Source of the DNA: Promethearchaeota archaeon
Lineage (GTDB): Archaea; Asgardarchaeota; Lokiarchaeia; Sigyniarchaeales; SOKP01
Assembly: GCA_016840085.1 (NCBI GenBank)
Contig: JAEOTA010000004.1
Location: forward strand, 1 to 64,000
Direction: 5' to 3'
Length of the DNA: 64,000 bases
Positions 32,802 to 42,225 of this stretch are shown in pieces. Below the pieces are notes generated by a model, which saw nothing but the letters and a program-made list of their open reading frames with translations, did not search any database and was not told the DNA's origin. The position numbers were made by a program, and so were the translations under genes. Position 1 is the stretch's first letter. Each line of letters opens with the position of its first letter.

Positions 32802-33902
32802 TCAGCAATAATTTTTCTGTAGTTGATATTTTCTCTTGCAATCACATTCAAATCTATTTTGTTCCAACTCACTTAAATTTTGAGAAAGAACAAAATTCTT
32901 AAGTAATAGCTTTGCAGAATTCTCACATTCTCTTTTTAAGCAATTATGTATCCCTCTTCTCGTTCCAGCACCACTAGGATCAGACAAAATTCGAACTTTA
33001 TCTAAATCTTTTTGTGTTAGTGATTTTTTTAAACATTTAAATAGGGAATAATACCACGGAGGTCTATATCTATTTTGATACCAGAGATATTCCACAAGAG
33101 TGCCTTTTTGTATGTTCAATGGATTAATCGATATTGTATTTATTTCTAGTTCAATTAGTTTTCTAATTGAATTTACACAATCATCTATAGCAGCTTGTTC
33201 ATTAAGAAATGGTGGTTTAAATAATAAATAAGCTTTTACACCTATATTATACTCTTTACATTCTTTATATACTTCTTTAAAATCTTCGAATAGAAATCCC
33301 TTATTAATATAATTGTTTCTAATATAATCATTCACAGTTTCAAGTCCAATAGCGATCTCAACATATTTTTCTTTTAGAAATTCTTTTATCTCAGAAAGGC
33401 TCTCTGTAGTTATATATTCTAATCTGCTTTCTATGACGAATTCTTTAATATTTTCGATTTTTGCAATTCTTTCATAAATAGTTCGCCTAACATCTTCAGT
33501 GATTTCTTTTTCATCAAAAAAACTTCCCGAATTAAATATTTTTAATATATAATTATCATGATCCTTTTCTATCTCGCTAATTTTAGTGTTAATAGCATAA
33601 TTAAATTGATTTATAACTTGAGATTGATCAACATCATCAATATTTGCATCATTTACATATCCACACATCGTACATCCACCAGTTTCACCTAATGACCAAC
33701 TACATCCTTTTGTTCTCAGGATAATTGTGAATTGCTTTCCTATTTCATTAATAAGTCGATCTTTTTTTATCCAAAAAGCAATAGGTTGATTTAATTGTTC
33801 TTTTCCATATTTTTTCTTGTTTTTTAGAGTTTTTTCTCTAAAAAATTTAACTTTTTCTGCAATATATTCATTATATTCTTTTAAATTACTATTTTTTATC
33901 AT
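32802..33902 (-). CDS. Archaeosine biosynthesis radical SAM enzyme RaSEA
   Basis: LRTKGCSW...GGCTMCG, IFNSGSFFD, YLLFKPPFLNE, YRPPWYYS; overlaps arcS. Confidence 0.88.
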   Translation of the reverse strand: MIKNSNLKEYNEYIAEKVKFFREKTLKNKKKYGKEQLNQPIAFWIKKDRLINEIGKQFTIILRTKGCSWSLGETGGCTMCGYVNDANIDDVDQSQVINQFNYAINTKISEIEKDHDNYILKIFNSGSFFDEKEITEDVRRTIYERIAKIENIKEFVIESRLEYITTESLSEIKEFLKEKYVEIAIGLETVNDYIRNNYINKGFLFEDFKEVYKECKEYNIGVKAYLLFKPPFLNEQAAIDDCVNSIRKLIELEINTISINPLNIQKGTLVEYLWYQNRYRPPWYYSLFKCLKKSLTQKDLDKVRILSDPSGAGTRRGIHNCLKRECENSAKLLLKNFVLSQNLSELEQNRFECDCKRKYQLQKNYC

Positions 33903-35979
33903 TGATTTTAACTATTCTCCCAGTTTTTGAATTCCTTATAAAATTCGAACCAACTATTAAATTTCCGGTTCCTATTACATCGTTTTTTTCCTTATTTATA
34001 ATGAACGTAAAATTGTTTGGGATTAAATCTTGACTGAAATCTATGATCCCCTTTCGAAATAATGTATTACCTTTAATGTGATCTGCATCAAAGACAATCG
34101 TATTTGAATCTATAGAATAGGGTACTTGAATTAATCGATTAATTCCCTTAAGTGTTAAATCTATTTGGCCTGTAGAGGATTTAAAAACTCCCAATCTTTC
34201 CTTGCTTTTTAAATCTATTAAATTAATATTACCATTAGACTTAAGTTTGATTTGTATTAATTCTTGTGAAATTACTCTCATTCCTGAACCGACACCAAAC
34301 TGATAATCTAATATTTTAATAAATTTTCGAATCCACGATTTTGTTAAAAAATCTCCTTTCTTTAACTGTTGTTTAGGGTTATACTTATCCTTGTATTCAC
34401 TAATTAAATATTCTAATGATTGAAGGGATTCTTTTGATGTTAATTTATCTGAAATTTTTGTAAAAAAGAATTTATGAGGTAATTTAGATTTAGCTCTCTC
34501 AACAATCTCATGATATTCATTTTTAAGATGACAAACAATCGGAATATCCTTATCATATTTTTCTAGCATTTTTACGAGCATTTTAGCAGCGATATTCAAT
34601 TCTTCATTATTCCAATCTCCTGTAACTGAAATATCATACGAATTAACAGGATAAATATTTTCAAATTGTCTTGGAATAACTCCTAAAGGTGAAGTCAGAA
34701 TAAATTCTTGGAAATTTGGAAATTCTGAAAATTTTCTTATTCTTTCATAAAATAATTTATGAGATTTAGATTCAGAATAAGGCTTTTTAGCTGAGCATGG
34801 AAGTAATATGATTAAAGTGGTCCATGGTTCAGGTTCAAAATTTATTATTGCTCTTTCTCTAAATTCTTTAAAATCTGGTCGATTATATGAAGATGGTCCA
34901 AGGCATCTAATTTTTCTATTTTTTATAGTTATAGGTGTTTCATATCTCATTAGATTAAAATATTCTTTATCTAACATTTTCAAAATTGAGATTAAATTAG
35001 TATCATCACACGTAGATTTTTCGACAAAGGCTCTATAATCTTCATAATTTAAATATTGGTTAATTTTATTCATGTAATTAGTTGCCGATATTATATTATG
35101 GAGACATAATAAATCTATTTTCTCAGAAGAATATTTAATATCAAAAAGATTCATTAATTTTCCTTTACAAGCAACACAAGTACAAGGTAAATACCTCACT
35201 TTATATATTGGAAGAAGATACTCTATCGTGTCATAGAAATTTTCAGCTGACAAATATAATAAATAAGAACTGTCAATTAGATCCACGCCTAAATATATTA
35301 AAATAGGATAAAATTTAGGGATTATCCTACCTGAAGCCATTACAACGAGATTGTTGTCCAATTCAGTTTTAATCTCAGAAATAACCCTTGAAATACCTCT
35401 AAAATTACTAAAATTATCAAAAACATCAGATAAGTTTAACAATTTAATATTTTCATTCTGAATTATAATTGGGATATAGAGTTTAAACAATTCAGAATAA
35501 TCAAAAACTTTAATCGTTATGCCAAAATTAAGATTTGGATATTTTTTTAAGATATATTTGATCTTTTTAAGATATTCTTTTATTTCTTTTTCTGCAAAAT
35601 CTTTGTTAATAGATGTTGTAGGAATATTAAAAGGTAATATTGATATTATCTTGTCTTCAGAGAAGATTTCTAAATTTCTTATTAAAAGATCTTCAAAATT
35701 CTCCAAAGTTCCATTAGAAGAAAAAATAAATCCTGTATCCTTGAATTTTTCACGAAGAAATCCAATTTTTAAAAATATCTCTTTTGAAATAATGAAGAGC
35801 TTGTGATTTTCAAATTCTTGTATAAAACTAAATTGTTTCATTAATGAATTTTTTATAGGAATAATTATATTTGGAGTGTTTATATATAGCTTCCGATCTC
35901 TAGATAATGATATCCGCCCTATTCTTGAATAACCTATCCTACTGGCTTTTAATTCAAAAAAATAATTCATACTTTTCAA
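33889..35979 (-). CDS. arcS: Archaeosine synthase ArcS (TgtA2-like, C-terminal PUA)
   Basis: GVDLID, CTCVAC...HN, LLPCSAKKPYSESKSH, ILTSPLGVIPR, YDISVTGDW, DYQFG. Confidence 0.9.
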   Translation of the reverse strand: MKSMNYFFELKASRIGYSRIGRISLSRDRKLYINTPNIIIPIKNSLMKQFSFIQEFENHKLFIISKEIFLKIGFLREKFKDTGFIFSSNGTLENFEDLLIRNLEIFSEDKIISILPFNIPTTSINKDFAEKEIKEYLKKIKYILKKYPNLNFGITIKVFDYSELFKLYIPIIIQNENIKLLNLSDVFDNFSNFRGISRVISEIKTELDNNLVVMASGRIIPKFYPILIYLGVDLIDSSYLLYLSAENFYDTIEYLLPIYKVRYLPCTCVACKGKLMNLFDIKYSSEKIDLLCLHNIISATNYMNKINQYLNYEDYRAFVEKSTCDDTNLISILKMLDKEYFNLMRYETPITIKNRKIRCLGPSSYNRPDFKEFRERAIINFEPEPWTTLIILLPCSAKKPYSESKSHKLFYERIRKFSEFPNFQEFILTSPLGVIPRQFENIYPVNSYDISVTGDWNNEELNIAAKMLVKMLEKYDKDIPIVCHLKNEYHEIVERAKSKLPHKFFFTKISDKLTSKESLQSLEYLISEYKDKYNPKQQLKKGDFLTKSWIRKFIKILDYQFGVGSGMRVISQELIQIKLKSNGNINLIDLKSKERLGVFKSSTGQIDLTLKGINRLIQVPYSIDSNTIVFDADHIKGNTLFRKGIIDFSQDLIPNNFTFIINKEKNDVIGTGNLIVGSNFIRNSKTGRIVKINDKK

Positions 35980-36092
35980 TAAATACGACTAAATTACTGA
36001 ATTAATTTTTTTCTATTTAATTTATTGAAATATTCTAAAATTATTAAGAATTCACTCATTGGAAATTAATATATCTTTAAAGTCTTATTTTT

Positions 36093-37415
36093 TTAAAAAA
36101 TCAGAAAATTTGTATATAATTTTAACTCATCTAGGACAAAATGAGTAAAAGTGTCTTCGATTTCTTCTGTTAGATAAAGTTGTCTTATGAAATTTCCATA
36201 TTCCTCTATTTTCTTTACACGAACAATAGCTAATAAACCATATTGTTCGCCTATCCGAAAAAGATCAGTAATGTTTTTGTTATTTTCTAATTTGAAGGCA
36301 AGTTCATTGTATTTGGATGGATCTTTTGGTTTAATTCGGAGTATATACTTACCTTTAAAACCTATTTCTTTCGGAGAGAAATCAACTGTGTAATTTAGAA
36401 TTACACCTTGACGTTCAAGTTTTTTAATTCTATTATGTATCGTTGATTGTGATATTTCATCATTATGTTGTTCCTTAAAGATTTTTTTTATTTCGTATGT
36501 TGATATTGGTTTAAGTCCTTGCCCATCCCGCAAAATTTTTAATATTTTATAATCAATATTGTCTATTTTAAGATTTAGATCGATGTTTTTCTTATCTATT
36601 TTTATCCCAATCTTCCTTATAGCTTTAATTATCTTATTTATTACGTGTTCAGCGTCTGTAGTCTCTCTTAAACCGCTTACAATTATTTTACCATTTGAAG
36701 AAATTAAAATGGTTGTGTTAATTTTTTCAAGCTTCATAACAATACCCGGAAATTTCTTGGGATTATATTTAATATCCATATGATTTCGACCGATCAGATT
36801 TAAATCAATTTTCTCTGCAAGTTCTACCTCTGCATTCTCAATTATATAATCTGAATTAGTATCATAATCTTTTTTCTTTTTCAATATGAAATTTAATTGT
36901 TCTACGAGCTCCTCTTCAAAAGTCATATTTAAGCTCCTTAAGCTAATTCCATTTGTTTTAAACACCTTAATGGTTTCAATGATCTGATATTTTTTAAAAT
37001 ATGATCGCGCCATAATTTTATCAATTGTATTTAATATCTGATAATATTCCTCGGGGGATTTAAAGATAAATAAGGCGAATAGAGAAAATTCTCCAAAAAT
37101 ACCATCTAACATTTTTATCTGGGGGATATTCAGCAATTCCTCAACAAGTTCAGGCTCTTTTGGGTTAGTTTTAATTTCAAGCATGACATATTTTAGATTA
37201 TTCGGCCTAAGATTTGGATTAATATTAATTGTAAAATTAGTAATTATTTTTCGATCCCTTAAATTATCAAGCTTGTTTTGATATGTTTGTCTAGAGATAC
37301 CTATCGCACGGGAATTTTTTGAAATAATAAATTTGGTTTTTCCACTTAAATTTTTTATAAAACGCTGGACTTCTACTCGATCTTTATTATTGTTCATAAT
37401 ATAACAGTTTTGCAT
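36093..37415 (-). CDS. Tandem Lrp/AsnC regulator with an internal single TBP-like repeat
   Basis: Two wHTH+RAM units (GISRQTYQNKLDNL...; DNIDYKILKIL...ISQSTIHNRIKKLERQGVI) flank KYNPKKFPGIVMKL...TILISSNGKIIVSGLR. Confidence 0.82.
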   Translation of the reverse strand: MQNCYIMNNNKDRVEVQRFIKNLSGKTKFIISKNSRAIGISRQTYQNKLDNLRDRKIITNFTININPNLRPNNLKYVMLEIKTNPKEPELVEELLNIPQIKMLDGIFGEFSLFALFIFKSPEEYYQILNTIDKIMARSYFKKYQIIETIKVFKTNGISLRSLNMTFEEELVEQLNFILKKKKDYDTNSDYIIENAEVELAEKIDLNLIGRNHMDIKYNPKKFPGIVMKLEKINTTILISSNGKIIVSGLRETTDAEHVINKIIKAIRKIGIKIDKKNIDLNLKIDNIDYKILKILRDGQGLKPISTYEIKKIFKEQHNDEISQSTIHNRIKKLERQGVILNYTVDFSPKEIGFKGKYILRIKPKDPSKYNELAFKLENNKNITDLFRIGEQYGLLAIVRVKKIEEYGNFIRQLYLTEEIEDTFTHFVLDELKLYTNFLIF

Positions 37416-37535
37416 TTTCTTTTAGAAATATTAATTATATGTAAAACCTATTATAAAAATATTTGCACTTAACCAAAAATAGCTTTATTAATTAATTAAA
37501 ATTATAAAGTTTATAACAATAAAAGTGAATTTTAA

Positions 37536-38804
37536 ATGGTAAATTATAAAGTTGCCGATGAAAGTTTAGCAGAAAAAGGAAAGGAAGCACTATATATTGC
37601 AGAAAATAAAATGCCTGTAACCGCGAAAGTTCTGAGAGATCGTTTTGCTAAAGAAAAACCATTGGAAGGTATCACAATAGCAGGCTGCCTTCATGTAACA
37701 AAAGAAACAGGTAATTTGGCTCGCACTTTAAAAGCTGGAGGTGCTGAAGTATATTTATGTGGGAGTAATCCTCTCTCAACTCAAGATGATGTTACGGCTG
37801 CTCTGGTTCAGGAAGGAATAAATGTATTCGCATGGCATGGTAATACAGATGAGGAATTCTATTGGTGTATTCGTGAGTGTCTTAAGGCTAAACCCAATAT
37901 CCTAATTGATGATGGTGCCGATATGATTGTTACTGCGCATCAAGAGTTTGAAGATTTGATAAAATCGGGCACTATTATAGCATGCCAAGAGGAAACTACT
38001 ACGGGTGTTAAAAGATTTAGAGCGATGGAAAAGCAAGGAAAATTGAAGATACCTTTATTTCCTGTCAATGATGCTAGATGTAAGAATCAATTTGATAACG
38101 AGCTTGGAACGGGACAAGGAATTGTTTCTGCGATTTATGGAATGCATATTCTTTTTGCGGGTAAGGTTTGTGTGATTAGTGGATATGGACACTGTTCATC
38201 TGGAATGGCACTAAGAGCAAGGGGTCTTGGTGCTAACGTGGTTGTCACTGAAGTTGATCCGATTAAAGCACTTCAAGCTAAATTTGCAGGATATCAAGTT
38301 ATGCCTATAGCAGAAGCTCTACCAATTGCTGATATAATCCTAACAGCGACAGGGTGCAAACACGTGATTGCTCCGACAAAAGAGATGTTCAATAAGTTAA
38401 AAGACGGAGTAATTCTTGGTAATCTTGGACATTTTGACATTGAAATTCCAACCAAGGAATTATACGAATACGCAAAATGGATAAAACCTATTCGTTCTAA
38501 TGTGGAAGAATTGACCTTTCCTGATGGCAAAAGAGTTTATCTACTCGCCAAAGGGAGATTAGCTAACCTTGTTTTATCTGAGGGACACCCCAGTGAGATC
38601 ATGGATATGTCTTTTGCCCTTCAATCCTTAATGTCGGAATATATTGTAAAAAATAAAGATTCCCTAAAACCAGGTATGCTTGAGGTTCCAACTGATATTG
38701 ATGATAAAGTTGGTTTTCTAAAACTTAAAGCTATGGGTGTTGAGATTGATACCTTAACAACGGAACAATATAATTACATACACGGTTATGAAGAAGGAAC
38801 TTAA
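37536..38804 (+). CDS. ahcY: S-adenosylhomocysteine hydrolase
   Basis: GCLHVT, SNPLSTQD, DDGAD, EETTTG, VNDA, GRLANL, GHPSEIMDMSF. Confidence 0.96.
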   Translation: MVNYKVADESLAEKGKEALYIAENKMPVTAKVLRDRFAKEKPLEGITIAGCLHVTKETGNLARTLKAGGAEVYLCGSNPLSTQDDVTAALVQEGINVFAWHGNTDEEFYWCIRECLKAKPNILIDDGADMIVTAHQEFEDLIKSGTIIACQEETTTGVKRFRAMEKQGKLKIPLFPVNDARCKNQFDNELGTGQGIVSAIYGMHILFAGKVCVISGYGHCSSGMALRARGLGANVVVTEVDPIKALQAKFAGYQVMPIAEALPIADIILTATGCKHVIAPTKEMFNKLKDGVILGNLGHFDIEIPTKELYEYAKWIKPIRSNVEELTFPDGKRVYLLAKGRLANLVLSEGHPSEIMDMSFALQSLMSEYIVKNKDSLKPGMLEVPTDIDDKVGFLKLKAMGVEIDTLTTEQYNYIHGYEEGT

Positions 38805-39033
38805 TTTTTATTTTATTTTTTTTTTACCTGCTGTTCACCCTGATCAATATGAAGGATCTGGTCTTTAAATCTCCCATTCACTACACCATTTTTTAACATA
38901 ACCAGTTGATTTATTTTACATTTTGGTAATATTATTTAATGGCATATTCCATACTCAAATAAAAAATCAGAATAAAATTTTAAGTCTTTACCTTTCTTTC
39001 AATTACCTCTTCTTTTTTAAAGGTAATATTGTC

Positions 39034-39209: not shown

Positions 39210-40826
39210 TTATTCAATTCTTTTAAGTTTTCTTAACCCGAATATAAAGATGGGAATAGCTATTAATGCTTGAATACCATTAAACCCTGCTAAGAATTCA
39301 TAAATCGCCCAATTTGAAGTAGGGGGTTCCGTAAATAGTGCGGCGATTAAAAAGATAAAACCTATGAACTGTCCCATTTGAATTGCTACGGTTATAAACA
39401 TATTCCCTCCCATATTTTTTCCTTTTTCTTCAAACGCAGGACGAAAACATTGTACTCCAATTGTTATAACGATTGCAAATATAGCAGAAAATAAAAAAGC
39501 GACAAAAGAAGATAGTATATCTATGAATTCAAATTCTAAAATGATACTGAGCGCAATTGTGAGTCCTATATCCATTAGAATTATTAATATTACCAGCGAA
39601 AACAAATAAGAATAGACCAGCCCGTTGACAGACCTAGGGGATTTCTTATATACCCAAAGTAGATCCTTAGAACCTACAAAGATATAACTCCCAAATATAA
39701 TACTCAATATAAATCCACCCATAAAGGTTCTTATTAATCTATATACTGCTGTAGTTATAAATTGACCACCCCCCATTTCAGGCACTATTAAGGGATACAC
39801 AATACCGAAAAAAGCAATGATTCCTATTGCGTAGACGAGTTTAGAAATATTTTCTTTTTTACGAAAGAATCCTTTAAATTGAACGATGACTAATCCTTCC
39901 CATTTTTTCCCGATAAACATCCTAAAAAATCCATATAGTTTACTCTCTTCTTCGATAATCGTAGCACCTTTTTCAGTACCCCCTTCTAGGCTATAAAAAG
40001 TATTTGCTTTCTTATATGAAAGATATAATACAAATAATGTTATGATAATAACTAATCCAATATTCATCCAAATATTTAGTATATAAGATTCCAAAAGCGA
40101 TGGCTCTAAGATATAAACAGCTATACTTGAAAACCAATATGCTGGATAAATAGAAAGCCAATTCTTAAGTTCTGGATGCTCTAGCAAATATTTAAAGAAA
40201 TATTGTAAACTATAGATAAGGGCGACCATTCCTATAGATATTATCATGAGCAGAACCTTGGCAAGATCTCGATATTTTTCCGAATCGGCGATTTTATGTT
40301 CGATCCAAGAAGATAGTATAGACCCTAACAACAATGCAAATAAACACATTCCAAAAACGTCAGTATAAATTACCAAAGTTTGTATGAAGGTTAGATCTAT
40401 AAGGGGATTGATGAGACCTACAATGGCAGGAGTAAGCCCAAGAACAAACAATAGCATAAACGGTAATTTTCCCACAAATTCTCCAAAAAAGATATCTCCC
40501 GCGGTTATAGGGGCTGCTAAAATCATCTCTTTATGACCAATCTCTGTTTGCCTATAGATAAAATTAAGCGGGTAGAGTATTATAATTATAAAGAATATCA
40601 TAAGCATATACTCAATGATTAACGCAACCGCAGGAACAATAATTGGTTTAAACTCCTCACTTTGAGCTAAAGTCGGCATAAAAGAATCAAATAATAATGG
40701 TGCTAAAATAAATCCCCATATCAATAACACACCATAGAGAATTACAAAAAAAAGCAGGCGATGTCTTCGAAATTTACTAGTTCTCCTTTTAAGTTCATTT
40801 TTTGCAATTACTTTCCATAAACCCAT
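39210..40826 (-). CDS. ABC exporter permease (multi-pass membrane protein)
   Basis: About 12 TM segments; downstream of the ATPase on the same strand. Confidence 0.8.
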   Translation of the reverse strand: MGLWKVIAKNELKRRTSKFRRHRLLFFVILYGVLLIWGFILAPLLFDSFMPTLAQSEEFKPIIVPAVALIIEYMLMIFFIIIILYPLNFIYRQTEIGHKEMILAAPITAGDIFFGEFVGKLPFMLLFVLGLTPAIVGLINPLIDLTFIQTLVIYTDVFGMCLFALLLGSILSSWIEHKIADSEKYRDLAKVLLMIISIGMVALIYSLQYFFKYLLEHPELKNWLSIYPAYWFSSIAVYILEPSLLESYILNIWMNIGLVIIITLFVLYLSYKKANTFYSLEGGTEKGATIIEEESKLYGFFRMFIGKKWEGLVIVQFKGFFRKKENISKLVYAIGIIAFFGIVYPLIVPEMGGGQFITTAVYRLIRTFMGGFILSIIFGSYIFVGSKDLLWVYKKSPRSVNGLVYSYLFSLVILIILMDIGLTIALSIILEFEFIDILSSFVAFLFSAIFAIVITIGVQCFRPAFEEKGKNMGGNMFITVAIQMGQFIGFIFLIAALFTEPPTSNWAIYEFLAGFNGIQALIAIPIFIFGLRKLKRIE

Positions 40827-40849: not shown

Positions 40850-41662
40850 TTATTTTTTCTGCTTTTTTTTTTTAGGAATATGGTTATTCATGTTTTTCTC
40901 GTCTCGCCACGCAAGTAGATCATCAATATGAGTTGCCCCAATTATTTTTAGATACGCATCTTCTAAATCTTTTGCACTCTGGGACTCAATGATCTCTTTA
41001 GGTTTTCCTTGTACCTTGAGCGCACCCTTATCGATTATACCAATTTTGTCGCACAATTCTTCCGCAGCATCTAATAAGTGCGTGCAAATGAAGATTGTCT
41101 TATCTGCTTTTTTCGCAAGCACAGAAATGAGGTCTTTTACCATTCTTGCTGCTGCAGGATCTAAATTCGAGGTAGGTTCATCGAGAAATATTATTTTAGG
41201 GTCTTGAATCAATGCCGCACATAGACATACTTTCTGTTTCATCCCCCGTGAATACCCCTCTAATAGGTCATTTTCACGCCCTTCCAAATCAAAAATATCC
41301 AGTAGTTCGTTAACTCTAGACGCAATCCTGTCTTCAGGAAGATAATATAATTCTCCTATAAATTCTAAGAATTCCTTTGCGGTTAGCTTCTGGTATAATC
41401 CAGGTGATTCTGGCAAGAATCCGCAGATCATTTTCACATCGCGACTTTGGGTTATAATATCAAAACCTCCCACCGTTGCGGTTCCCGCAGTAGGTCTTAT
41501 GATTGCGTTCAACATCCTAACAGTAGTCGTTTTCCCTGCTCCATTAGGTCCTAATAGTCCATAAGTCTGACCAAATGGAATCTCTAAATTTAATTCATCC
41601 ACAGCCACCACATTTCCAAAAACTTTTACAAGATTCGTGGTTTTTACCGCAAAATTATTCAT
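40850..41662 (-). CDS. ABC transporter ATP-binding protein
   Basis: GPNGAGKT, YSRGMKQK, FLDEPT; likely start at MNNFAV behind GGAGGAG (ORF track extends to 41722). Confidence 0.9.
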   Translation of the reverse strand: MNNFAVKTTNLVKVFGNVVAVDELNLEIPFGQTYGLLGPNGAGKTTTVRMLNAIIRPTAGTATVGGFDIITQSRDVKMICGFLPESPGLYQKLTAKEFLEFIGELYYLPEDRIASRVNELLDIFDLEGRENDLLEGYSRGMKQKVCLCAALIQDPKIIFLDEPTSNLDPAAARMVKDLISVLAKKADKTIFICTHLLDAAEELCDKIGIIDKGALKVQGKPKEIIESQSAKDLEDAYLKIIGATHIDDLLAWRDEKNMNNHIPKKKKQKK

Positions 41663-41961
41663 TTTTGTTTTTTCTCCTCCTCTTTCAATATTATTATCTT
41701 CTTTGATTACTATTAACCACAATTAACATTTACTAATCACAACTTTATTCTTTAAAATTTAAAGTTAAGCCTTAAAAATTTAGGTAAAGATTAATTTTCT
41801 CGTTATAAAATACGGACAATTCTAGAAAAAATTAATTATCATTTTGAGCAAGGGCATTATTCGGTGATTTTGGAGCACAATAAGTCCTGTTTACTATCCA
41901 TTCAAGCACTTGTCCAAAAACGCTACTTAAAACAACATTTAATCCAATTCGTATTATATGT

Positions 41962-42225
41962 TTGTTAGCTAAGGGAAGATTAGCAAATTTAGTTTTATCC
42001 GAAGGACATCCTAGTGAAGTTATGGATATGTCATTCGCTCTTCAATCTTTAATGTCTGAATATATAGTCAAAAATAAAGATTTATTAAAACCAGGCATTA
42101 TTGAAGTACCTGCTGATATTGATAACAAGGTTGGCTTTTTAAAACTTCAATCCATGGGTATAGAAATTGATGCCTTAACTGAAGAGCAATATAATTATAT
42201 CCACGGGTACGAGGAAGGTACTTAA
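41962..42225 (+). pseudogene. Duplicated 3' fragment of ahcY
   Basis: 87 codons colinear with 38541..38804; 11 amino-acid differences; lacks the catalytic and NAD-binding domains. Confidence 0.85.

What the first reader, a model, noticed from the sequence alone, without database searches (positions are those of the whole stretch)
36093..37415. Lrp/AsnC - TBP repeat - Lrp/AsnC fusion protein
Seen: residues ~190-272 (nt ~36600-36848), IIENAEVELAEKIDLNLI...KYNPKKFPGIVMKLEKINTTILISSNGKIIVSGLRETTDAEHVINKIIKAI, follow one TBP repeat (consensus YxPExFPGLxxR...LIFxSGKxVxTG). They sit between two complete Lrp wHTH+RAM units. The first DNA-intercalating Phe (FPG) is kept, while the LIF Phe is replaced by Ser. 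Established: the Lrp-family activator Ptr2 works by recruiting TBP, and TBP normally has two repeats. Inference: a ligand-responsive regulator with its own half-TBP, which could dimerise into a promoter-specific TBP, act as a decoy, or be a protein-interaction module. It is divergent from ahcY and upstream of arcS-RaSEA-gar1-tfb.
Basis: partly seen in the sequence, partly recalled or inferred. Interest (0 to 1): 0.75.

Follow-up and report, generated by a model that had tools for sequence, protein, structure and literature searches.

The report
Lrp regulator carrying half a TBP
An Asgard archaeon's regulator gene beside the SAH-hydrolase gene carries one inserted half of the general transcription factor TBP; the fusion is real, conserved and apparently undescribed, but the half has lost TBP's central DNA-reading strand and is often deleted, so it is probably an add-on, not a private TBP.

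Summary
ORF 36093-37415 (-) encodes two Lrp/AsnC units (wHTH+RAM) with one TBP repeat between them. The repeat scores Pfam E 2e-16, is 46% identical to the N-repeat of the genome's only TBP, and its fold matches TBP at Z 8.6-9.5.

This scan met the same family before on other genomes. I re-tested its main points here.

- **Distribution and context:** 73 species-level Asgard genomes carry the gene. It always lies head-to-head with ahcY and almost always upstream of arcS.
- **Origin and loss:** about half the genomes have the lobe. It arose once from the main TBP's N-repeat and was cleanly lost at least four times, between 6-7-nt microhomologies.
- **Selection:** the lobe evolves about three times faster than the Lrp units (dN/dS about 0.33, against 0.08 and 0.13).
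- **What is lost:** no Lrp lobe has the strand-1 signature that every true TBP repeat here has (0 of 37). The window's copy also lacks the second Phe.
- **What is kept:** the stirrup, the first Phe and the basic residues of the outer concave face.
- **Promoter:** the conserved spacer has the same consensus with and without the lobe.

Best reading: this is a local, metabolite-sensing regulator of ahcY and of itself. The lobe is a dispensable accessory contact, more likely with DNA than with protein. A self-assembled "private TBP" is unlikely.

The parts
36093..37415 (-). Whole ORF (440 aa) of the double-Lrp regulator with the TBP lobe. The probable true start is the ATG at 37397 (434 aa).
   Evidence: The start is inferred from homologue N-termini and from stops or frame breaks in the upstream box in relatives.
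36936..37394 (-). N-terminal Lrp/AsnC unit (aa 8-160): a divergent winged HTH plus a RAM domain. It is the most conserved part of the protein.
   Evidence: FL11/PH1519 match at E 5.9e-5 over residues 10-127 of the 8-165 fragment, i.e. protein residues 17-134. The AF2 secondary structure is three helices followed by beta-alpha-beta-beta-alpha-beta. Consensus frequency is 0.85-0.90.
36849..36935 (-). Variable linker with a helix (aa 161-189). One subgroup of lobe-bearing relatives lacks it.
36591..36848 (-). TBP-derived lobe (aa 190-275): a shortened strand 1, helix 1, the stirrup YNPKKFPG, the sheet and helix 2. F222 is kept; S239 replaces the second Phe.
   Evidence: Pfam TBP E 2e-16. 46% identity to the N-repeat of the genome's own TBP. 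AF2 pLDDT 77.7 and VIA-align Z 8.6-9.5 to TBPs.
36096..36578 (-). C-terminal canonical Lrp/AsnC unit (aa 280-440): HTH_24 plus the AsnC_trans_reg RAM domain.
   Evidence: FL11 E 2.5e-14; the NCBIfam LysM-type model is the best Lrp match.
37416..37535 (.). Divergent ahcY/regulator spacer, strongly conserved across about 49 species. It holds two back-to-back AT-rich promoter regions.
37461..37479 (-). Box A (TTTTTGGTTAAGTGCAAAT), lying between the two TATA-like regions. It is the candidate core operator and is the only match in the genome at 70% or more of the maximum score.
   Evidence: At least 90% column conservation. One genome hit at 70% or more of the maximum score.
37401..37415 (-). Box B (ATGCAAAACTGTTAT), a conserved non-coding element just upstream of the real start codon. 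It is a candidate autoregulatory site and shares TGCAAA with box A, 54 bp away.
   Evidence: Stops or a frame break in L019, L020, L022, L024, L026 and L036 show that it is not coding.
37430..37446 (-). Box C (TTTTACATATAATTAAT), on the regulator's side. It forms an imperfect inverted repeat with box T.
   Evidence: inverted repeat I1.
37484..37502 (-). Box T (ATTTTAATTAATTAATAAA), the TATA-like palindromic element on the ahcY side.
37536..38804 (+). ahcY (S-adenosyl-L-homocysteine hydrolase), the divergent neighbour and the probable regulated target.
   Evidence: Pfam AdoHcyase E 2e-61. It is divergent in 70 of the 70 related loci that have upstream flank.
33889..35979 (-). arcS (archaeosine synthase-type TGT+DUF5591), the conserved downstream neighbour. 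The radical-SAM partner gene, gar1 and tfb follow it.

Best explanation
The gene encodes a single-chain double Lrp/AsnC regulator. Its two wHTH+RAM units probably fold into an intramolecular pseudo-dimer. It acts locally on the back-to-back promoters it shares with ahcY.

Inferred mechanism:
- It binds the conserved spacer. Box A lies between the two TATA regions, and box B lies at the regulator's own start.
- It responds through its RAM domains to a small metabolite, plausibly from the methionine/SAM-SAH cycle.

Shown history of the lobe:
- One copy of the N-terminal repeat of the lineage's main TBP was inserted once into the linker between the two units.
- It still folds as a TBP half and is under purifying but relaxed selection.
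- It lost the central strand-1 signature.
- It kept the stirrup, the first Phe and the basic outer half of the concave face.
- It has been precisely deleted several times without any change in the Lrp units or in the promoter.

Inferred role of the lobe: it is a dispensable accessory that works as a lone half-saddle. Most likely it adds a low-specificity minor-groove or bending contact on the AT-rich promoter DNA next to the Lrp sites, and so tunes the regulator without being needed for it.
For: Architecture and fold.

Local regulator:
- ahcY is divergent in 70/70 loci that have upstream flank, and arcS lies downstream in 68/73.
- The roughly 148-bp spacer is conserved at 80-100% per column across 49 species.
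- Box A has only one match in the 4.7-Mb genome at 70% or more of the maximum score.
- The genome holds no paralogue of the regulator.
- Box A and box B sit where archaeal Lrp activators (just upstream of BRE) and repressors (downstream of TATA) are known to bind (PMC2995911).

Single origin from the main TBP N-repeat:
- 46% identity to the N-repeat against 29% to the C-repeat.
- 36 of 37 lobes form one starred clade among main-TBP N-repeats, apart from the paralogue TBPs.

Accessory and dispensable:
- 37 lobe-bearing and 34 lobeless orthologues; the basal branches are lobeless and at least 4 lobeless clades are nested among lobe-bearing ones.
- The deletions are clean, between TTTTGAA-type microhomologies.
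- The spacer consensus is the same with and without the lobe.
- No Lrp-unit residue co-varies with loss.

Selection: dN/dS is about 0.33 for the lobe, against about 0.08 and 0.13 for the two Lrp units.

Lone half-saddle contacting DNA:
- The outer concave face keeps TBP's DNA-contact chemistry. The R98 equivalent is K/R in 95%, F99 is F in 100%, R105 is K/R in 83%, K120 is K/R in 95% and V122 is V/I in 91%.
- The exposed helix 2 and the loops are free to vary.
- The single TBP-like N-domain of RNase HIII is a substrate-binding domain by itself (PMC4132731 abstract).
Against: - No binding, ligand or expression data exist, and no RNA runs hold the locus.
- Strand 1 is shortened and carries Glu/Asp on the former DNA face. 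This could also hinder DNA contact.
- This genome's copy has Ser at the second Phe.
- The best-conserved stretch is the stirrup YNPE[KR]FPG, which is a protein-contact site in TBP. A protein partner would explain the conservation equally well.
- The promoter shows no element specific to lobe-bearing genomes.
- The full-length model is poor (pLDDT 60.6), so where the lobe sits relative to the HTH domains is unknown.
- The trees are quick searches, and the root rests on the choice of the most divergent lobeless group.
Confidence: 0.45

Rival explanations
1. The lobe is a protein-contact module. It presents the TBP N-stirrup and concave surface to a partner, which could be TFB, another basal factor, free TBP, or the regulator's own RAM surface. 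Ptr2-type Lrp activators use that RAM surface to touch TBP. On this reading the lobe acts as a tethered TBP mimic or decoy that modulates recruitment.
For: - The stirrup YNPE[KR]FPG is the most conserved surface stretch of a fast-evolving domain.
- Strand 1 lost the DNA-reading signature and became acidic.
- Archaeal Lrp activators contact TBP directly through RAM-domain residues (PMC2995911).
- Congeners also encode stand-alone single TBP repeats.
Against: - The lobe derives from the N-repeat, whereas TFB binds the C-terminal stirrup (established from TBP-TFB structures such as 1AIS; my knowledge).
- The basic residues that contact phosphate in TBP are kept at 83-95%, which a pure protein interface would not require.
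- No Lrp-unit residue changes when the lobe is lost, so no docking site within the same chain is visible.
Confidence: 0.25
2. The lobe is a slowly decaying passenger. A TBP fragment was captured by chance in a tolerant linker, is nearly neutral or merely a spacer, and is on its way to loss.
For: - Repeated clean losses leave the gene, its neighbours and its promoter unchanged.
- It evolves about three times faster than the flanking units.
- The second Phe is lost in about 14% of copies, this one included.
- Strand 1 has eroded.
Against: - dN/dS is well below 1 in most close pairs (median about 0.33).
- F222 and G242 are invariant, and several surface positions are 83-100% conserved across 66 sequences.
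- The reading frame is intact in all 37 species copies.
- The domain still folds confidently as a TBP half.
Confidence: 0.15
3. Two chains bring their lobes together into a TBP-like saddle that binds a TATA-like element in the spacer and nucleates TFB/RNAP there, as a promoter-specific TBP.
For: - Lrp proteins oligomerise.
- The spacer holds two TTAATTAA palindromes.
- The first Phe and most outer DNA-contact residues are kept.
- The genome has only one TBP gene.
Against: - The strand that forms the centre of the saddle and carries the N69/V71-type contacts lacks its signature in 0/37 lobes. It is present in 14/14 main N-repeats, 14/14 main C-repeats and 12/12 paralogue N-repeats.
- That strand is 2-4 residues shorter than in the parent.
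- Its outward face is Glu/Asp. This is typical negative design on an edge strand (my inference). A Glu at yeast V71 gives a TATA-binding-defective TBP (PMC1457003).
- Lobeless orthologues use the same promoter consensus.
- The window's copy has only one of the two Phe.
Confidence: 0.08

Closest known systems
Archaeal TATA-binding protein, N-terminal repeat (this genome's own TBP on contig C53; solved relatives P. woesei 1PCZ/1AIS, S. acidocaldarius 1MP9, M. jannaschii 2Z8U)
   Same: - 46% identity to the N-repeat of the genome's own TBP.
- Pfam TBP match above the cut-off.
- The same fold: Z 8.6-9.5; 1MP9 aligns 85 residues at rmsd 2.7.
- Shared motifs EKIDLN, YNPE+FPG, ILIFS.GK and GIK.
   Different: - One repeat, not two.
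- Embedded in a 440-aa regulator.
- The strand-1 signature is lost and the strand is shortened.
- Branches are at least ten times longer than those of the parental repeat.
- The second Phe is Ser in this genome.
Archaeal Lrp/AsnC (feast/famine) regulators: FL11/PH1519 (2CYY, 2E1C), LrpA (1I1G), LysM, Ptr2
   Same: - Both units have the wHTH+RAM layout.
- The gene lies next to its probable target, with conserved sites at activator-type and repressor-type positions.
- Ptr2-type members act through contact with TBP (PMC2995911).
   Different: - Two non-identical units sit in one chain, 30% identical to each other.
- A TBP repeat lies between them.
- The ligand and the binding sites are unknown.
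- The 2010 family review has no occurrence of 'fusion', 'fused', 'tandem' or 'domain architecture'.
Monopartite TBP-domain proteins (euryarchaeal single-TBP-domain proteins and haloarchaeal TbpA; Brindefalk et al. 2013, PMC3597702), and the TBP-like N-domain of RNase HIII (PMC4132731)
   Same: A single TBP-type domain that functions outside the two-repeat TBP. RNase HIII shows that one such domain can be a substrate-binding domain on its own.
   Different: - Those proteins are stand-alone, or are fused to a nuclease or a glycosylase, and most are old and very divergent.
- This lobe is a recent copy of the lineage's own TBP N-repeat, placed inside a transcription regulator.
SAH-responsive control of ahcY in bacteria (SahR repressor, SAH riboswitch). 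This is from my own knowledge and was not checked here.
   Same: A dedicated local control element next to ahcY and methyl-cycle genes.
   Different: - A different protein family, or an RNA element.
- The effector of the Asgard regulator is unknown.

Membership tests
TBP domain (Pfam PF00352) | Match to the TBP repeat profile above the curated cut-off | tested here: met
   59.9 bits against a cut-off of 22.9, E 2.1e-16, one stretch, profile positions 9-84 of 85.
TBP domain (Pfam PF00352) | TBP repeat fold (strand, helix, four-strand sheet, long helix) | tested here: met
   Lobe-only AF2 model with pLDDT 77.7 and pTM 0.71. TBPs are the top hits at Z 8.6-9.5 with 85-90 residues aligned.
TATA-binding protein proper | Two tandem repeats in one chain forming the saddle | tested here: not met
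   One repeat only. The genome's true TBP, with two repeats, lies elsewhere on C53.
TATA-binding protein proper | Strand-1 signature N-[IV]-V-[AG]-[ST] carrying the central minor-groove contacts (yeast N69/V71) | tested here: not met
   Found in 0/37 Lrp lobes, against 14/14 main N-repeats, 14/14 main C-repeats and 12/12 paralogue N-repeats. The strand is 2-4 residues shorter than in the parent.
TATA-binding protein proper | The pair of DNA-kinking Phe residues in each repeat | tested here: not met
   In this genome F222 is present but position 239 is Ser. Across the family the first Phe is kept in 100% and the second in about 85%.
TATA-binding protein proper | Binds TATA DNA and recruits TFB | not testable with these tools
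   This needs EMSA and in-vitro transcription.
Lrp/AsnC (FFRP) regulators | N-terminal winged HTH followed by a RAM (AsnC_trans_reg) domain | tested here: met
   C-unit: HTH_24 at 23.7 bits (cut-off 21.9), PF01037 at 53 bits (cut-off 25), FL11 at E 2.5e-14. N-unit: FL11 at E 5.9e-5 across both domains, and the matching secondary structure.
Lrp/AsnC (FFRP) regulators | Dimer or octamer assembly through RAM domains, and an effector bound at RAM interfaces | not testable with these tools
   The full-length model is too poor (pLDDT 60.6).
Ptr2-type Lrp activators that recruit TBP | A dimer site a few bp upstream of BRE/TATA, and direct contact with TBP | tested here: inconclusive
   A conserved box with a single strong genome match lies between the two TATA-like regions. 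Neither binding nor TBP contact can be tested here.
Monopartite TBP-domain proteins (Brindefalk 2013) | The protein consists of a single TBP domain only | tested here: not met
   The domain is internal to a 440-aa two-unit Lrp protein. Stand-alone single repeats exist in congeners but not in this genome.

The most novel reading that the evidence does not exclude
Effector-controlled oligomerisation of the double-Lrp body brings two lobes together into a TBP-like saddle on one of the TTAATTAA palindromes of the ahcY spacer. The regulator would then start pre-initiation complex assembly by itself. It would be a gene-specific factor with a built-in, ligand-gated general factor, and a living example of a TBP made from two single-repeat chains.
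Probability: 0.07. Interest if true: 0.9.

Novelty: new variant of a known kind. Interest (0 to 1): 0.55.

Why it matters
TBP is normally an untouchable core component, and its two-repeat form is thought to descend from a single-repeat ancestor. Here a lineage of Asgard archaea, the closest prokaryotic relatives of eukaryotes, has copied one TBP repeat into a bacterial-type, metabolite-sensing regulator and kept it under selection in dozens of species.

This offers three things:
- **A natural deletion series.** Orthologues with and without the lobe share the same promoter, so one can ask what a lone TBP half can do on DNA or with basal factors.
- **A candidate dedicated regulator of the SAH hydrolase gene in archaea.** My paper searches found none described.
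- **A clean case of domain gain followed by repeated microhomology-mediated loss.**

If the lobe proves to be only a tuning contact, the finding is a well-documented curiosity of domain shuffling. If it talks to the basal machinery, it is a new kind of link between specific and general transcription factors.

Tried and rejected
- I sent residues 186-282 as two copies with the family alignment. The verdict was 'no answer' (score 0.01), so I do not use it as evidence either way.
- **Expression.** No RNA holder is listed for 35900-38900. Only DNA runs from marine sediment and mangrove metagenomes hold it, so no transcription start or expression data were obtained, and read laying was not used.
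- **Full-length AF2 model.** With pLDDT 60.6 and pTM 0.33, it is too poor to place the lobe relative to the HTH or RAM domains. The Foldseek search on it only re-found the Lrp and TBP folds, with rmsd above 10.
- **Regulon search.** I scanned the whole genome with position weight matrices for the four conserved spacer boxes. Box A has no second site, and the hits for boxes B, C and T are weak AT-rich matches that I did not pursue. No regulon beyond the local spacer emerged.
- **Co-variation with lobe loss.** No Lrp-unit residue changes consistently in the four independent lobeless clades.
- **TBP half as a widely reused module.** A TBP-N-repeat plus Ras-type GTPase fusion in a congener turned out to be a single partial protein at a contig end, with no other member in the 5.8-billion-protein collection at similar length. 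It gives no support.
- **Literature.** Five searches found no description of an Lrp-TBP fusion or of an archaeal Lrp regulator of ahcY. The library lacks most subscription journals, so this is not proof of absence.
- **Position-by-position mapping of strand 1.** The mapping onto yeast TBP numbering depends on where a 2-4-residue gap is placed. I therefore claim only loss of the signature and the acidic face, not a specific V71-to-Glu substitution.
Full report
**What is in the sequence.**
The minus-strand ORF 36093-37415 is open and encodes 440 residues.
- Pfam finds one TBP repeat at residues 195-268, with E 2.1e-16 and 59.9 bits against a cut-off of 22.9. It also finds two AsnC-type RAM stretches and a winged HTH.
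- Against solved structures, the middle part matches archaeal TBPs at E 3e-21, and residues 280-432 match the full-length Lrp protein FL11/PH1519 at E 2.5e-14.
- The N-terminal part, searched alone as residues 8-165, matches FL11 over residues 10-127 of both proteins (fragment numbers; protein residues 17-134), at E 5.9e-5. It is 30% identical to the C-terminal unit.
- The FPG Phe (F222) is present, and the second TBP Phe is Ser (S239).
ahcY is divergent, and arcS, a radical-SAM gene, gar1 and tfb follow on the same strand.

One correction concerns the start codon. The first six codons (MQNCYI) overlap a conserved DNA box. In several relatives that box contains a stop codon or is out of frame, so the real start is probably the ATG at 37397.

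**Structure.**
- The full-length AlphaFold model is poor (pLDDT 60.6). Its secondary structure still reads wHTH plus beta-alpha-beta-beta-alpha-beta, then a TBP-type repeat, then wHTH plus RAM.
- The lobe folded alone with a lobe-plus-TBP alignment gives pLDDT 77.7 and pTM 0.71.
- Its best structural matches are TBPs at Z 8.6-9.5. The clearest is the N-terminal repeat of S. acidocaldarius TBP, with 85 residues aligned at rmsd 2.7 and 32% identity.

**Where it occurs.**
- The protein collection holds hundreds of relatives. All named ones come from Asgard (Promethearchaeota/Lokiarchaeia-type) metagenome bins and are annotated only as Lrp/AsnC proteins.
- In one-genome-per-species data there are 73 loci.
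- In all 70 loci with upstream flank, ahcY lies head-to-head 110-170 bp away. arcS follows downstream in 68 loci, and four of the five exceptions have almost no downstream flank.
- Counting the window's own gene, 37 copies have the lobe and 34 have a 9-15-residue linker in its place.
- The window's genome has one canonical TBP gene, this lobe, and no paralogue of the regulator.
- This scan had already met the family on other genomes, and its follow-ups reached similar conclusions. I re-derived the points below independently.

**Origin and history of the lobe.**
- The lobe is 46% identical to the N-terminal repeat of the genome's own TBP and 29% identical to the C-terminal repeat.
- I built a tree of 94 repeats. 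It held the main TBPs and two paralogue TBP groups from relatives, stand-alone single repeats, and the 37 lobes. In it, 36 lobes form one supported clade among the main-TBP N-repeats and apart from the paralogues. Their branches are at least ten times longer than those of the parental repeat.
- A second tree used the Lrp-unit columns only. There the deepest branches are lobeless. The lobe-bearing genes form a crown group with at least four lobeless clades nested inside, and the minimum is five state changes.
- This pattern fits one gain and repeated losses. It rests on a quick tree rooted on the most divergent group.
- The insert is flanked by short direct repeats, typically TTTTGAA, which encode the ...SFEE and ...NFEID junctions. 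Deletion between them gives exactly the lobeless linker sequence. That offers a simple mechanism for repeated clean loss.

**Selection.**
- Across 66 lobe-bearing proteins the consensus frequency is 0.85-0.90 in the two Lrp units and 0.57 in the lobe.
- In 14 close pairs, dN/dS has a median near 0.33 in the lobe, 0.08 in the first unit and 0.13 in the second.
- The lobe is therefore kept by selection, but under clearly weaker constraint.

**What the lobe kept and what it lost.**
- *Lost.* The strand-1 signature N-[IV]-V-[AG]-[ST] is present in 14/14 main N-repeats, 14/14 main C-repeats and 12/12 paralogue N-repeats. It is also present in 4 of the 5 repeats that are stand-alone or fused to a GTPase. 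It is present in 0 of 37 Lrp lobes.
- Pfam coverage of the lobes starts at profile position 5-14 rather than 1-3.
- The strand is 2-4 residues shorter than in the parental repeat, and one subgroup replaces it altogether.
- What remains of the strand alternates aliphatic residues with Glu/Asp on the face that binds DNA in TBP.
- In TBP this strand lies at the centre of the saddle, next to its counterpart from the other repeat, and carries the N69/V71-type contacts (established structural knowledge). A Glu at yeast V71 is used as a TATA-binding-defective mutant (PMC1457003).
- Because a 2-4-residue gap can be placed in more than one way, I claim only the loss of the signature and the acidic face, not one specific substitution.
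- *Kept.* The outer half of the concave face and the stirrup are retained. Y217 is Y in 89% and P219 is P in 94%. The R98 equivalent is K/R in 95% and F222 is F in 100%. The R105 equivalent is K/R in 83%, the K120 equivalent is K/R in 95% and the V122 equivalent is V/I in 91%.
- The second Phe is kept in about 85% of copies, but not in this one.
- Exposed helix-2 positions and the loops vary freely.

**The promoter region.**
- The ahcY-regulator spacer is unusually conserved for non-coding DNA in a 29% G+C genome.
- It contains an AT-rich palindromic TATA-like element on the ahcY side (box T).
- It contains a central block, TTTTTGGTTAA.TGCAAAT (box A), followed by a TATA-like run.
- It contains a second palindromic element (box C).
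- It contains TGCAAAA.TGT.AT directly before the start codon (box B).
- Boxes T and C form an imperfect inverted repeat, and the TGCAAA cores of boxes A and B are 54 bp apart.
- Box A is the only match in the whole genome at 70% or more of the maximum score, which argues for a dedicated local regulator.
- Known archaeal Lrp activators bind just upstream of BRE and contact TBP through RAM-domain residues. LrpA represses by binding just downstream of the TATA box (PMC2995911). Boxes A and B occupy such positions, but binding is an inference.
- The consensus of the spacer is the same in 35 lobe-bearing and 14 closely related lobeless loci.
- No residue in the Lrp units changes consistently when the lobe is lost.

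**Interpretation.**
The core function is that of a single-chain double-Lrp regulator of ahcY and of itself. It probably senses a small metabolite. The link to the SAM/SAH cycle rests only on gene neighbourhood.

The lobe is an optional add-on, and I rank four readings:
- *Lone half-saddle making an extra, low-specificity contact with AT-rich promoter DNA (0.45).* TBP's phosphate-contacting and wedge residues on the outer face are retained. A single TBP-like domain in RNase HIII is a substrate-binding domain on its own (PMC4132731).
- *Protein contact through the conserved stirrup (0.25).* This includes a tethered TBP mimic acting on the RAM surface that Lrp activators use for TBP.
- *Nearly neutral passenger (0.15).*
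The strand that would form the centre of the saddle is eroded and acidic, the lobe is dispensable on an unchanged promoter, and this genome's copy has only one Phe.

**Novelty.**
I found no paper that describes this architecture or an archaeal Lrp regulator of ahcY. Known single-repeat TBP proteins are stand-alone and much more divergent (PMC3597702).

It is a new variant of two known kinds, Lrp regulators and TBP-domain proteins, and not a new kind of system.

**Limits.**
- There are no expression or binding data.
- Both trees are quick searches with SH-aLRT support only.
- The full-length quaternary arrangement is unknown.

Noticed in passing
window 41962-42225 (+): An 87-aa ORF matches the C-terminal part of the AdoHcyase profile (positions 221-291, E 3.6e-9). 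It is a second copy of the ahcY 3' end, about 3.2 kb downstream of the intact gene and beyond an ABC ATPase and an unassigned 538-aa ORF. Earlier first-reader notes of this scan describe the same thing.
   Followed up: no
window 37401-37415 (-), and the same place in L009-L055: The conserved box TGCAAAA.TGT.AT often starts with ATG or TTG in frame, so gene callers add a false N-terminal extension 'MQNC...'. In L020, L022, L024, L026 and L036 it contains TAA, and in L019 it is out of frame. It is therefore a DNA or RNA element and not coding sequence.
   Followed up: partly
L123:947-1306(-), L124:989-1276(-), L126:885-1250(-) (congeneric genomes G007, G017, G011): Stand-alone ORFs of 96-122 aa consist of a single TBP repeat (Pfam E 4e-25 to 6e-16) with an intact or nearly intact strand-1 signature. 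They form their own clade next to the main-TBP N-repeats. The window's own genome has none.
   Followed up: partly
L127:3-731(-) (genome G017, contig C29, at the contig start): A TBP N-repeat (E 1.8e-20) is fused to a Ras/Roc-type small GTPase domain (E 1.2e-28). The protein is cut by the contig end. A database search found only this one protein with both domains, so it may be a one-off or an assembly artefact.
   Followed up: yes
relatives G001-G030: Most related genomes show 4-9 TBP-repeat matches, that is two to four TBP genes. These include two paralogue groups of 200-222 aa. The window's genome has a single TBP gene plus the lobe.
   Followed up: no
window 37499-37511 and 37541-37553 (+): An exact 13-nt direct repeat, AAATTATAAAGTT, has one copy in the ahcY promoter and the other just inside the ahcY coding start.
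   Followed up: no
window 39210-40826 (-): A 538-aa ORF with no Pfam family at E <= 0.001 lies next to an ABC-transporter ATPase gene (40850-41722), between ahcY and the duplicated ahcY tail.
   Followed up: no
L054, L057, L059, L061, L062, L068, L071, L074 (one lobeless clade): In this clade arcS lies about 830 bp downstream of the regulator rather than about 120 bp, so an extra small gene or insert sits between them. The ahcY-side spacer also has a different sequence.
   Followed up: no
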